From positions 22,010,001 through 22,074,000 of the forward strand of contig OZ024764.1 of the NCBI GenBank assembly GCA_964016885.1: DNA of 64,000 nt. Reading direction: 5' to 3'. Of this stretch, positions 3,154 to 53,728 are shown piece after piece; positions within the stretch are counted from its first letter, which is position 1; each line of letters starts with the position of its first letter. The translations under genes were made by a program, and so were the position numbers. The notes beneath the pieces are model-generated. The model was not told the origin of the DNA. It saw nothing but the letters and a program-made list of their open reading frames with translations, and made no database searches. This DNA comes from Eledone cirrhosa. Lineage: Eukaryota.

Positions 3154-3849
3154 CTAAACTTCTGTATGAATACGCGCATGCTTGGTGAAGTTACCTCTAA
3201 CAGAGAATGATTTACCACAGATGTCACAGTGATATGGCTTCTCTCCTGTATGAGTACGTTTGTGGGTAGTTAAGGTATCACTACGAGAGAATGATTTTCC
3301 ACAGATATCACAGTGATATGGCTTCTCTCCTGTATGAATACGTTGGTGGGTAGTTAAGGTATTTCTGTGACTGAATGACTTACCACAGATGTCACAGTGA
3401 TATGGCTTCTCTCCTGTATGAATTTGTTTGTGAACTCTGAAGCTACTACTGTCACTGAATGATTTATCACAGATATCACATTGATATGGCTTCTCTCCTG
3501 TATGAATACGTTTGTGAGTAGTTAGGTGCTGACTACAAGGGAATGATTTACCACAGATATCACAATGATATGGGTTCTCTCCTGTATGAATACGTTTGTG
3601 AGTAGTTAGGTTATTACTGCCAGAGAATGTTTTACCACAGATATTACAGTGATATGGTTTCTCTCCTGTATGAATACGTTTGTGAGTAGTTAAGGTATTA
3701 CTCTGAGAGAATGATTTACCACAGATATCACAGGAGAATGGCTCTTCTCCTCTATGAATACGTATGTGAGTAGTTAGGTTATCACTACGAGAGAATGATT
3801 TACCACAGATATCACAGTGGAATGGTGATTTTACTATATTTTTCGACAT
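3154..3849 (-). CDS. C2H2 zinc-finger protein ZF1, 8 fingers, no effector domain
   Basis: 231 aa = 8x28+7; CxxC-x12-HxxxH fingers with TGEKPY linkers. Confidence 0.92.
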
Positions 3850-4060
3850 ATCTCCTACTAAAAGATATCAATCACCTCAGTTTCTCACATAATTCACAGC
3901 TTAATACTGAGAAATTTAGTTATATTACTAAATCACTTCAAAGTGTTGAGTGTTTTCAAAATTATTTGAAAATGATGGGTAGTGTCTTTCATTAGAAATG
4001 GTTAATGTTGAGGATATGTCTGATGTAACGTGCTCTTTAATGCCAATGTCCTCTGGTATT

Positions 4061-4078
4061 CTGAAATAATAAAAGAAC
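4061..4078 (-). other. Putative splice acceptor of the ZF-coding exon
   Basis: TTCTTTTATTATTTCAG|AATACC, conserved in all four units (19864, 20500, 35284, 50875). Confidence 0.65.
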
Positions 4079-4197
4079 ATTATAAGATACTCAGAAACTT
4101 GTAATACATCAGTACAAATTTCATATAATATTTCTATATTGATAAATGGACTGTAATAAATACTAAGGCCTTCCTTGGTGAAGAATGTGCTGACTAA

Positions 4198-4346
4198 CAT
4201 AGGTTAGTTATTAGTGACATTAGATTAAACTGACTGATAAAATTAGTTATTAGTGACATTAGATTAGACTGACTGATAAAAGTAGTTATTAGTGACATTA
4301 GATTAAACTGACAGATAAAAGTAGTTATTAATTACATCAGATTAAC
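4198..4346 (+). repeat. 39-bp minisatellite (about 3 units)
   Basis: Unit AGTAGTTATTAGTGACATTAGATTAAACTGACTGATAAA. Confidence 0.85.
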
Positions 4347-4549
4347 TCTTTAGTATTCACATTACTCTATATTTACTATTATATTTTCACAGTAAATGCT
4401 TTATCTCTCATAATATCAAATCTATGAGATTTTGATGTTACTTATTTTGAGAACAATACCTTAACATAAGTATAAGTGACCAGTTACGGCCAGTTTGAAC
4501 AGAAAGACACGAGACAATTCTGGCCAGATATGGCCAGTTTATATACTAA

Positions 4550-50300: not shown

Positions 50301-50345
50301 GACAGCTTCTCACAAGCCATTCTTCTACACCTAATTTCTTTAACC
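47310..50345 (-). mobile_element. Decayed RTE LINE cluster
   Basis: Inverted paralog of 4550-7310; retains an extra RT segment (ADDVVLIAES...GLRVNLAKTK). Confidence 0.88.
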
Positions 50346-50551
50346 CTTTAGTATATAAACTGGCTATATCTGGCCAGACTTCTCCCACATCTTTCTGTTC
50401 AAACTGGCCGTAACTGGTCACTTATACTTATGTTAAGATATTGTTCTCAAAATAAGTAACATCAAAATCTCATAGATTTGATATTATGTGAGATAAAGCA
50501 TTTACTGTGAAAATATAATAGTAAATATAGAGTAATGTGAATACTAAAGGG

Positions 50552-50737
50552 TTAATCTAATGTCACTAATAACTACTTTTATCAATCAGTATAATCTAAT
50601 GTCACTAATAACTACTTTTATCAGTCAGTATAATCTAATCTCACTAATAACTACTTTTATCAGTCAGTTCAATCTAATGCCACTAATAACTACTTTTATC
50701 AGTCAGTATAATCTACTGCCACTAATAACTAACCTAT
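50552..50737 (-). repeat. 39-bp minisatellite (4-5 units)
   Basis: MSLITTFISQYNL periodicity. Confidence 0.88.
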
Positions 50738-51690
50738 GTTAGTCAGCACATTCTTCACCAAAGAAGGCCTTAGTATTTATTACAGTCCATTTATCAATAT
50801 AGAAATATTCTATGAAATTTGTACTGATGTATTACAAGTTTCTGAGAATCTTATAATGTTCTTTTATTATTTCAGAATACCAGAGGACATTGGCATTAAA
50901 GAGCACGTTACATCAGACATATCCTCAATATTAACCATTTCTAATGAAAGACACTACCCATCATTTTCAAATAATTTTGAAAACACTCAACACTTTCAAG
51001 GGATTTAGTTAAATAACTAAATTTCTCAGTATTAAGCTGCTATTTGGAACATAACTTTGCACAATTTCATGAAGTTATAATGGAAAGTTTTTAGATAAAT
51101 ATAAAGACTGGTATGAAAAGGTTAAAACACTTTTATATCAGTTGTTTCATCAACACCATTATTTAAAGACTAAAGGAAGCTGTTATACAGAACAGATACA
51201 ACCTTGTTTATATAAATCTATGGGAGAAATACTGGGAAATATTTCTTGTAAACTCAATAACACTTCTATTCTTCGCTGTCTGGAATATGTAGAAGATACA
51301 AAATAAAGCTGAAGAAATTTACACATGATTTTGTAAGATCTTCATATATTGACAAAGATGATAGTTGATGGAACTACAGGAGTAGAAATATTTCCATTAT
51401 TACAGGAATAACTAATCAAATAAAAACCAGAAAAATTAGATTCTTCACTGTCTGGAATTTGTGCAAGATGATTTTATATGTATATTAAACTTGAAGAGAT
51501 CTACAAAACAGTTTGTATCATCTTTAAATATAAAGAAAGACCAAAGTTGATAAAAATATATCTGGAGGAATATATTTTAAGAATAATATTATAAACATAA
51601 AGAAGAAAACTATCCATATATTGCGAGGAGAAAAATATTAAAACTGTGAATTATGTGAGAAACTGAGGTGATTGATATCTTTTATGAGAT

Positions 51691-53574
51691 ATGTCGAAAA
51701 ATATAGTAAAATCACCATCCCACTGTGATAACTGTGGTAAATCATTCTCTAAAAATAATGAATTAACTAGACACAAACTAAATCATACGGAAGAGTTGCC
51801 ATATCACTGTGATATCTGTGGTAAATCATTTTCTCAAACTTATACCTTAACTATTCATAAGTGTATTGGTACAGGAGAGAAGCCATATCACTGTGGTATC
51901 TGTAGTAAATCATTCTCTTACAGAATTAGCTTTGTTAAACACCAACGTATTCATACAGAAGAGAAGCCATATCAGTGTGATATCTGTGGTAAATCATTCT
52001 CTCGTAGTAATCACCTAACTAATCACAGACGTATTCATACAGGAGAGAAGCCATATCAATGTGATATCTGTGATAAATCATTCAGTGACAGTAGTAGCTT
52101 CAGAGTTCACAAACAAATTCATACAGGAGAGAAGCCACATCACTGTGACATCTGTGGTAAATCATTCAGTCACAAAAATACCTTAACTACCCACATACGT
52201 ATTCATACAGGAGAGAATCCATATCACTGTGACATCTGTAGTAAATCATTCCCTGGCAGAAGTAGCTTCCTTAAACACCAACGTGTTCATACAGGAGAGA
52301 AGCCATATCAATGTGATATCTGTGATAAATCATTCAGTGACAGTAGTAGCGTCAGAGTTCACAAACGTATTCATACAGGAGAGAAGCCATATCACTGTGA
52401 CATCTGTGGTAAATCATTCAGTCACAATAATACCTTAACTAATCACAAACGTATTCATACAGGAGAGAAACCATATCACTGTGATATCTGTGGTAAAACG
52501 TTCTCTAAATATAATCACCTAACTACTCACAAACGTATTCATACAGGAGAGAAGCCATATCACTGTGATATCTGTGGTAAATCATTCAGTCACAGTAGTA
52601 GCGTCAGAGTTCACAAACAAATTCATACAGGAGAGAAGCCACATCACTGTGACATCTGTGGTAAATCATTCAGTCACAAAAATACCTTAACTACCCACAT
52701 ACGTATTCATACAGGAGAGAATCCATATCACTGTGACATCTGTAGTAAATCATTCCCTGGCAGAAGTAGCTTCCTTAAACACCAACGTGTTCATACAGGA
52801 GAGAAGCCATATCAATGTGATATCTGTGATAAATCATTCAGTGACAGTAGTAGCGTCAGAGTTCACAAACGTATTCATACAGGAGAGAAGCCATATCACT
52901 GTGACATCTGTGGTAAATCATTCAGTCACAATAATACCTTAACTAATCACAAACGTATTCATACAGGAGAGAAACCATATCACTGTGATATCTGTGGTAA
53001 AACGTTCTCTAAATATAATCACCTAACTACTCACAAACGTATTCATACAGGAGAGAAGCCATATCACTGTGATATCTGTGGTAAATCATTCAGTCACAGT
53101 AGTAGCGTCAGAGTTCACAAACAAATTCATACAGGAGAGAAGCCACATCACTGTGACATCTGTGGTAAATCATTCAGTCACAAAAATACCTTAACTACCC
53201 ACATACGTATTCATACAGGAGAGAATCCATATCACTGTGACATCTGTAGTAAATCATTCCCTGGCAGAAGTAGCTTCCTTAAACACCAACGTGTTCATAC
53301 AGGAGAGAAGCCATATCAATGTGATATCTGTGATAAATCATTCAGTGACAGTAGTAGCGTCAGAGTTCACAAACGTATTCATACAGGAGAGAAGCCATAT
53401 CACTGTGACATCTGTGGTAAATCATTCAGTCACAATAATACCTTAACTACTCACAAACGTATTCATACAGGAGAGAAGCCATATCACTGTGATATCTGTG
53501 GTAAATCATTCAGTCACAGTAGTAGCGTCAGAGTTCACAAACAAATTCATACAGGAGAGAAGCTATATCATTGA
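51691..53574 (+). CDS. C2H2 zinc-finger protein ZF4, 22 in-frame fingers (finger 2 degenerate)
   Basis: 627-aa ORF with internal 504-bp repeats. Confidence 0.9.
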
Positions 53575-53728
53575 CATCTGTAGTAAATCATTCAGTCACA
53601 GAAATACCTTAACTACCCACAAACGTACTCATACAGGAGAGAAGCCATATCACTGTGACATCTGTGGTAAATCATTCTCTCAAAGTGGTAACTTAACCAA
53701 GCATGTGCGTATTCATACAGAAGTTTAG
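53572..53728 (+). pseudogene. Out-of-frame fingers 23-24 of ZF4
   Basis: CACTGTGAC became CATTGAC (net 2-bp loss); the shifted frame ends with the paralogous IHTEV stop. Confidence 0.85.

What the first reader, a model, noticed from the sequence alone, without database searches (positions are those of the whole stretch)
3154..53728. Effector-less ZF paralogs diversify mainly in recognition helices and finger number
Seen: flanks are highly similar and finger scaffolds are homogenised at the DNA level as an 84-bp unit, yet arrays have 8, 9, 16 and 24 fingers. Helices (positions -1 to 6) differ, e.g. F1 is [21 protein letters not shown] or KNNELTR. Finger types (CSQHLTT, DSSS(F/V)RV, H(R/K)NTLTT, xRSSFLK, terminal xxGN(L/F)TK) are reused in new orders. 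Only about 10 aa precede the first finger, so there is no KRAB, ZAD or SCAN domain. Known: PRDM9 arrays and KRAB-ZFP clusters evolve this way. Inference: this is a modular specificity-generating system, possibly a KRAB-independent response to TEs.
Basis: partly seen in the sequence, partly recalled or inferred. Interest (0 to 1): 0.75.

Follow-up and report, generated by a model that had tools for sequence, protein, structure and literature searches.

The report
Bare zinc-finger gene array, rapidly reprogrammed
These four genes belong to a young cluster of about 200 near-identical genes, most likely in an octopus relative, that encode bare strings of DNA-reading zinc fingers with no effector domain; their DNA-contact residues change faster than chance, which likely reflects a race with repeated or mobile DNA, though no target has been shown.

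Summary
Mostly confirmed. The window holds four C2H2 arrays of 8, 9, 16 and 24 84-bp units; the last has a 2-nt deletion, leaving 22 in frame. They belong to a cluster of at least 187 copies (about 200-250 estimated) in 4.7 Mb, in a likely octopod. 'Effector-less' survived a direct test: an RNA-like run and a genomic retrocopy both join a non-coding first exon to the array exon, in-frame stops precede the ATG, and a 35-aa leader found in other octopod zinc-finger genes is broken here. Across 72 intact copies, contact positions -1, 2, 3, 6 show dN/dS 1.4-2.0, zinc ligands 0.3-0.4 and the other scaffold 0.8-1.05; none of 150 neutral simulations reached the contact value. Finger number differs in 13 of 37 near-identical pairs. 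The arrays are less extreme than PRDM9 and look like other zinc-finger genes of this genome on that statistic. Transposon targeting is untested. Octopod C2H2 clusters and the transposon hypothesis are published, and this scan noted a similar reshuffled cluster on another piece of this genome (e1-9557371).

The parts
3154..3849 (-). Gene 1 coding sequence: 11-residue stub plus 8 C2H2 fingers, 231 aa, intact
3850..4060 (-). Gene 1, untranslated 5' part of exon 2 (short 211-nt form): in-frame stops, two upstream ATGs, out-of-frame remnant of the octopod leader
4061..10258 (-). Gene 1 intron, GT...AG, 6198 nt, with minisatellites and transposon fragments
10259..10327 (-). Gene 1 non-coding exon 1; 5' limit taken from the start of the retrocopy match
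10328..10440 (-). Conserved sequence upstream of exon 1, inferred core promoter
   Evidence: promoter role inferred
2885..2890 (-). Gene 1 AATAAA, candidate polyadenylation signal
   Evidence: use not shown
18873..19652 (-). Gene 2 coding sequence, 9 fingers, 259 aa, intact; a near-identical copy 867 kb away has 10
24840..24908 (-). Gene 2 non-coding exon 1 (acceptor at 19863, a duplicated acceptor at 20499)
33710..35077 (-). Gene 3 coding sequence, 16 fingers, 455 aa, intact; acceptor at 35283 but no exon 1 in the window, intron broken near 37904
45306..45374 (+). Gene 4 non-coding exon 1, GT donor after 45374
50876..51690 (+). Gene 4, untranslated 5' part of exon 2 (long form, 815 nt, several upstream ATGs)
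51691..53728 (+). Gene 4 array: 24 DNA units, 22 in frame (627 aa, stop at 53572-53574), last two units out of frame
52138..53145 (+). Exact tandem repeat of a six-finger, 504-bp block in gene 4, followed by a partial third copy
53997..54002 (+). Gene 4 AATAAA, candidate polyadenylation signal
   Evidence: use not shown

Best explanation
These are members of a young tandem family of about 200 two-exon genes that encode zinc-finger-only proteins, whose arrays are likely rebuilt by unequal crossing-over between 84-bp units and whose DNA-contact residues are under diversifying selection, likely because they bind fast-changing repeated or mobile DNA. Shown: gene structure, lack of an effector, loss of the ancestral leader, copy number, turnover of finger number and order, excess amino-acid change at contact positions, constraint on zinc ligands. 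Inferred: unequal crossing-over as the mechanism; translation; sequence-specific DNA binding. Untested: the targets, and how a bare array acts (occupancy of the site, or cofactors bound through the fingers themselves).
For: Splice joint: in run X24 a 194-nt contig stops matching at 4060 and its 30 loose letters match exon 1, followed by GTAAGT; cover is nil over 4082-4133, where DNA-like run X21 reads through. A retrocopy on another contig has the same joint. In-frame stops lie between acceptor and ATG in 88 of 88 copies with an acceptor within 1.5 kb (96 examined); 0 of 110 have an open upstream in-frame ATG; none of 87 sense-strand intron and upstream frames matches KRAB, ZAD, SCAN, BTB or SET. 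Selection: contact dN/dS 1.37-2.04, p<0.05 in 15 of 18 settings; zinc ligands 0.26-0.42; other scaffold 0.79-1.05; 1-91 of 4845 position sets reach the contact value; observed 1.59 against a maximum of 1.38 in 150 neutral simulations with and without recombination. Turnover: 13 of 37 pairs with at most 3 flank differences in about 600 nt differ in array length (5 of 21 disjoint pairs); helix sharing falls from 0.90 below 0.5% flank divergence to 0.06 above 2%; 12 pairs have near-identical 5' but at least 2% diverged 3' flanks. Predicted motifs of octopus zinc-finger proteins are enriched in transposons (PMC10547256 section 6).
Against: No binding data and no motif prediction were obtained, so the target class rests on analogy. 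The non-contact scaffold evolves almost neutrally (0.79-1.05) and two non-contact positions also reach about 2. With single-step neighbours and CpG changes included the contact excess is not significant (1.37-1.39, p=0.1). The de-duplicated statistic is biased upward under neutrality (means 1.16-1.45), so its 2.2-2.4 overstates the effect. 30 of 102 complete copies do not read through to the terminal finger, 54 of 916 units have lost a zinc ligand, and 3 of 15 arrays in 264 kb lack their own exon 1. X24 is one run, not on record as RNA, and cannot tell copies apart. Long-form leaders carry many upstream ATGs, so translation may be poor. The 867-kb duplicated block (99.7-99.8% identical) could be an uncollapsed haplotype, which would make some pairs alleles.
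Confidence: 0.55

Rival explanations
1. Ordinary transcription factors diversifying for host gene regulation (for example neural cell types); the selection is on new gene targets, not on a conflict with repeats.
For: Expanded cephalopod C2H2 genes are expressed in nervous tissue and fall into different co-expression modules (PMC12513265, abstract and passages). Human non-KRAB C2H2 proteins mostly bind promoters (PMC5131825 passages). The same sequence data fit.
Against: Helix content turns over within about 2% flank divergence and many copies are truncated, which is fast for stable regulatory wiring (inference). All copies share one promoter-like sequence.
Confidence: 0.2
2. A mostly neutral, recombination-prone array: copies multiply and shuffle because of their repeat structure, and the helix diversity is inherited from older finger types.
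For: Near-neutral scaffold; 30 of 102 truncated; rare variants hit zinc ligands freely (ratio 1.8-2.2); contact-diversity share no higher than in other zinc-finger genes of the genome; repeat-rich unit with large segmental duplications.
Against: Neutral simulations started from the observed finger types did not reach the contact excess (0 of 150); zinc ligands are constrained; stops fall in the 3' half in 14 of 18 distinct lesions (p=0.03, with some bias from frameshift run-on); the family is spliced in X24.
Confidence: 0.15
3. The proteins are not effector-less in practice: a minor splice form adds a coding exon, or they act as specificity subunits or decoys for effector-bearing partners, including PRDM9.
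For: A second AG lies just upstream of the ATG. Fish FiNZ and mammalian KRAB domains sit in a separate upstream exon (PMC10547256). Contigs drop rare isoforms. An earlier scan note reports a PRDM9 elsewhere in this genome (e1-9559852, not checked).
Against: The X24 contig reads straight across that AG (3822-3899); exon 1 has no ATG; the only domain above Pfam's cut-off in 87 intron frames is a PHD finger in a likely retrotransposon fragment in the gene 2 intron. No evidence of a partner.
Confidence: 0.1

Closest known systems
Octopod and coleoid C2H2 zinc-finger expansions (PMC9068888 passages; PMC12513265 first part and passages)
   Same: Large clustered, lineage-specific C2H2 families; octopus-specific expansions of 104-495 sequences. 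A leader profile from this genome's other zinc-finger genes hits named Octopus proteins, and this family carries a broken copy of that leader.
   Different: The passages read give no gene structure, effector status or site-level selection. This family is very young (median flank divergence 3.2%) and its best named Octopus hits are only 63-67% identical.
Zebrafish FiNZ-ZNF genes (PMC10547256, sections 6 and 10 and passages)
   Same: Hundreds of clustered paralogs, positive selection at base-contacting residues, no KRAB, two-exon layout.
   Different: FiNZ is a conserved 28-aa acidic domain in the upstream exon; here the upstream exon is non-coding. Transposon repression was shown by knockdown in fish and is untested here.
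Tetrapod KRAB zinc-finger clusters
   Same: Tandem birth and death, finger gain and loss, adaptive change at -1, 2, 3, 6 (as summarised in PMC10547256).
   Different: No KRAB, so the TRIM28 route cannot apply as such; scaffolds here are far more alike at the DNA level (88% in the window).
PRDM9 zinc-finger minisatellite (PMC5519329, sections 10 and 25)
   Same: 84-bp units that duplicate and exchange, with diversity concentrated in the helix.
   Different: No SET, KRAB or SSXRD domain; a family of about 200 genes, not one gene with alleles; contact-diversity share 0.38 against 0.69 (human) and 0.91 (mouse); within-array identity 84%.

Membership tests
Tandem C2H2 (Kruppel-type) zinc-finger proteins | C-x2-C-x12-H-x3-H repeats with TGEKP linkers | tested here: met
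   (PF00096, PF13465)
Octopod C2H2 expansion | Homology to octopod zinc-finger genes outside the fingers | tested here: met
   5' region of gene 4 matches the upstream DNA of 20 of 20 other zinc-finger loci of the genome, best E 1e-31 to 9e-12, reversed control none; leader profile hits Octopus proteins
Octopod C2H2 expansion | Genomic clustering of lineage-specific paralogs | tested here: met
   187 distinct listed starts in C25:19.13-23.83 Mb
Octopod C2H2 expansion | Neural or embryonic expression | not testable with these tools
   tissue of X24 is not given
KRAB, ZAD, SCAN or BTB zinc-finger proteins | N-terminal effector domain, often in an upstream coding exon | tested here: not met
FiNZ-ZNF | Conserved acidic 28-aa domain in an upstream exon | tested here: not met
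   exon 1 is non-coding; the 35-aa leader remnant is out of frame in 106 of 110 copies and not found in the other 4
FiNZ-ZNF | Positive selection at base-contacting residues | tested here: met
FiNZ-ZNF and KRAB-ZNF | Binding to and repression of transposons | not testable with these tools
   no binding assay or validated motif predictor available
PRDM9 | SET, SSXRD and KRAB domains | tested here: not met
PRDM9 | Contact-site diversity share far above other zinc-finger genes of the species | tested here: not met
   0.38 (range 0.31-0.51, 71 arrays) against 0.36 (20 other loci)

The most novel reading that the evidence does not exclude
A repeat-surveillance system made of bare zinc-finger arrays: about 200 genes under one shared promoter that have shed even the short leader of their relatives, regenerate their DNA specificities by finger exchange within 2% of neutral divergence, and control young transposons with no effector domain, by occupancy or by cofactors bound through the fingers.
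Probability: 0.3. Interest if true: 0.75.

Novelty: new variant of a known kind. Interest (0 to 1): 0.47.

Why it matters
Whether octopod zinc-finger expansions serve neural regulation or transposon control is stated as open in PMC12513265 and PMC12988792 (passages). This family is young enough to show selection at single positions and has no effector to explain its action, so it offers a clean test of whether DNA recognition alone drives such expansions. I found no site-level selection analysis or effector test for an octopod family in my literature searches (listings, plus passages of four papers), but the 2015 octopus genome paper was not available and no supplements were opened, so some of this may be in print.

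Tried and rejected
Run search: no holder on record as RNA was listed; three runs of other organisms covered mainly fingers and repeats and were not used. The whole-protein homolog search was dominated by generic zinc-finger proteins and could not place the organism alone. The first selection count required intact Cys and His and ignored CpG, so it was replaced. Counts of differing finger number included parsing slips (14 of 37; 4 of 10) and were redone by length (13 of 37; 3 of 10). The motif list missed imperfect matches and was replaced by BLAST. The idea that the 35-aa leader is a FiNZ-like effector got little support: dN/dS 0.78 among 26 intact leaders (of 30 loci, chosen by similarity) against 0.39 for finger scaffold, and no Pfam match. 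5' and 3' flank distances are nearly uncorrelated (0.09), but a star-like radiation would also give that, and no reciprocal chimeric pairs were found. Contig depth in X21 was not used as a copy number. Literature searches returned nothing; searches gave no precedent that I read. No structure, complex or binding-motif prediction was run.
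Full report
Observation. Six-frame scans find four C2H2 arrays: gene 1 3154-3849(-), gene 2 18873-19652(-), gene 3 33710-35077(-) and gene 4 51691-53728(+). Parsed at the DNA level they hold 8, 9, 16 and 24 units; mean pairwise identity is 88.3% in the scaffold and 59.9% in the helix, with 36 distinct helices among 57 units. Gene 4 needs correcting: unit 2 lacks a His, a 2-nt deletion ends the frame at 53574 (22 units in frame), and units 6-11 are repeated exactly as units 12-17. 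Two other paralogs carry the same deletion.

Family size. The window lies on contig C25 of a 3.0-Gb assembly. A start motif occurs 112 times, the exon-1 motif 149 times, and two junction motifs 66 and 101 times. The listed starts merge into 187 distinct places in C25:19.13-23.83 Mb. Recapture rates of 89 of 110 and 10 of 15 give about 205-250 copies. A contiguous 264 kb holds 15 arrays. Each unit also carries 39-, 48-, 62-, 71- and 82-bp minisatellites. Median flank divergence among 92 copies is 3.2%. A block with genes 1-3 recurs 867 kb away, 99.7-99.8% identical around genes 1 and 3; I could not exclude an uncollapsed haplotype.

Organism. Inferred to be an octopod. A profile of N-terminal leaders from seven other zinc-finger genes of this genome finds 13 proteins, 10 of them named Octopus sinensis or O. 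vulgaris, best E 1e-16; the representative search gave 11 hits, all near N-termini. Whole-protein identity alone was not decisive.

Is the effector really absent? Because FiNZ and KRAB sit in upstream exons (PMC10547256), I tested splicing. In run X24, from the same coded organism as the DNA holders, a contig covers 3897-4060 and then leaves the genome; its 30 loose letters match 10259-10288, 24840-24869 and 45345-45374, each followed by GTAAGT. X24 has no cover over 4082-4133, while X21 reads through. X24 is not on record as RNA but behaves like it. A retrocopy at C7:49.45 Mb has the same joint and begins about 69 nt into exon 1. Exon 1 has no ATG in that stretch; in-frame stops separate acceptor and ATG in 88 of 88 copies with an acceptor in reach (96 examined); 0 of 110 have an open upstream ATG. 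Of 87 sense-strand frames in introns and upstream DNA, two had Pfam hits: a PHD finger in a likely retrotransposon fragment and one sub-threshold match. The product is an 11-residue stub, the array and about three C-terminal residues. Rare isoforms cannot be excluded.

A lost leader. Other zinc-finger genes of this genome begin with a charged 35-aa leader (95 loose matches at E up to 10, on many contigs; 26 of the best 30 intact). This family keeps its DNA but has lost the start codon, gained a stop in most copies and shifted frame: the remnant is out of frame in 106 of 110 copies and not found in 4. The leader is weakly constrained (dN/dS 0.78 against 0.39 for scaffold) and unknown to Pfam, so it is probably a stub, not an effector. 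Several other subfamilies also start at the internal Met.

Selection. I parsed 110 copies, chosen mostly by the start motif: 102 had a located 3' end and 72 read through, with 2-28 units, median 12. Their 916 units give 454 distinct sequences. Counting changes between nearest neighbours against a mutation spectrum from the flanks, dN/dS is 1.37-2.04 at -1, 2, 3, 6 (p<0.05 in 15 of 18 settings), 0.26-0.42 at zinc ligands, 0.26-0.40 at the core Phe and Leu, and 0.79-1.05 elsewhere. Position permutations put the contact set in the top 0.02-1.9%. Gene conversion breaks tree assumptions (PMC5519329), so I ran 150 neutral simulations from the observed finger types: none reached the observed 1.59 (maximum 1.38) or the contact-to-scaffold ratio of 1.8 (maximum 1.45); the de-duplicated version is biased upward but the observed 2.22 also exceeded the maximum of 1.94. 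The effect is moderate, the simulation is simple, and two non-contact positions are also raised.

Turnover. Array length differs by at least 60 nt in 3 of 10 pairs with identical flanks and 13 of 37 with at most 3 differences (5 of 21 disjoint pairs). The 72 intact copies give 57 distinct helix strings; RSNHLTT occurs at nine array positions and is followed by 18 different types. Shared helix content drops from 0.90 to 0.06 by 2% flank divergence. Gene 4 shares its 5' flank and first ten units with an 11-finger paralog but differs by 2.1% in the 3' flank, as expected of a crossover within the array (inference). Of 38 non-intact copies 33 keep at least five in-frame units. Three of 15 arrays in 264 kb, gene 3 among them, lack their own exon 1.

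PRDM9 comparison. The share of amino-acid diversity at contact sites is 0.38 in 71 arrays and 0.36 in 20 other zinc-finger loci, against 0.69 and 0.91 for human and mouse PRDM9 (my positions were -1, 2, 3, 6, and the sections read do not list theirs). The family shares the minisatellite behaviour but is not PRDM9-like in degree or domain content.

Mechanism. Shown: two-exon genes, bare arrays, rapid change of finger number and order, selection for new contact residues on a zinc-binding scaffold. Inferred: unequal crossing-over within and between copies supplies the variation, and selection acts on DNA specificity. Committed guess (0.55): the targets are repeats or transposons, and the proteins act by occupancy or through cofactors bound to the fingers. 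Rivals are host-gene regulation (0.2), neutral amplification (0.15) and hidden effector or partner (0.1).

Known and new. Clustered coleoid C2H2 expansions (PMC9068888, passages; PMC12513265, first part and passages), predicted transposon binding in octopus and positive selection in fish FiNZ genes (PMC10547256, two sections and passages) and the arms-race reading (PMC12988792, passages) are published. What this work adds is the splice-level proof of an effector-free layout, the lost leader, the family size and a site-level selection signal. Verdict: real, a new variant of a known kind, moderate interest.

Noticed in passing
L091 (G000:C7:49.448 Mb, minus strand): Processed retrocopy of a long-form family transcript: exon 1 joined to 481 nt of exon 2, then interrupted by other sequence; no array found in the next 11 kb.
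   Followed up: yes
L161-L225; remnant at window 3850-3895(-): A charged 35-aa N-terminal leader shared by many octopod C2H2 proteins, not in Pfam, weakly constrained (dN/dS 0.78); lost or shortened in several subfamilies.
   Followed up: partly
G000:C25:21.04-21.18 Mb and 21.90-22.05 Mb; 22.23-22.26 Mb and 23.14-23.17 Mb: Multi-gene blocks repeated at 867-kb and 908-kb offsets with 0-4 differences in 600 nt of flank; young segmental duplications or uncollapsed haplotypes.
   Followed up: partly
window 3850-4060(-) and 50876-51690(+): Two 5' untranslated forms (211 nt and about 815 nt; 66 and 101 exact junction matches). The long form has many upstream ATGs; the short looks like a deletion at a short shared sequence.
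   Followed up: partly
window 10300-10400(-): Compact conserved promoter-like stretch with motifs resembling CRE, NRF1, ETS, E-box and initiator elements (names recalled, not from a call).
   Followed up: no
window 21631-23378(-): Likely LINE fragment in the gene 2 intron with a PHD finger above Pfam's cut-off; part of it recurs at 37196-37904, at the break that cut gene 3 from its first exon.
   Followed up: no
window 12413-15208 and 60902-63995: Two inverted copies, about 95-97% identical, of a likely hAT-type transposon fragment (Spin-doc zinc finger hit just under cut-off at 63314-63820).
   Followed up: no
window 149-478, 1853-2504, 4205-4345, 9503-9720, 15533-16003 and copies: Minisatellites of 39, 48, 62, 71 and 82 bp travel with the gene unit and vary in copy number.
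   Followed up: no
L130 (C25:20353478), tile genes 22084078 and 22175227: A subgroup with long runs of one finger type (KNTKLTR, up to 11 in a row), which would suit a triplet-repeat target.
   Followed up: no
L131 and L036: Two arrays are interrupted at the same finger position by the same (CAT)n-headed insertion.
   Followed up: no
L045 (C25:21256263): A copy collapsed to two fingers, first and terminal, with an open frame.
   Followed up: no
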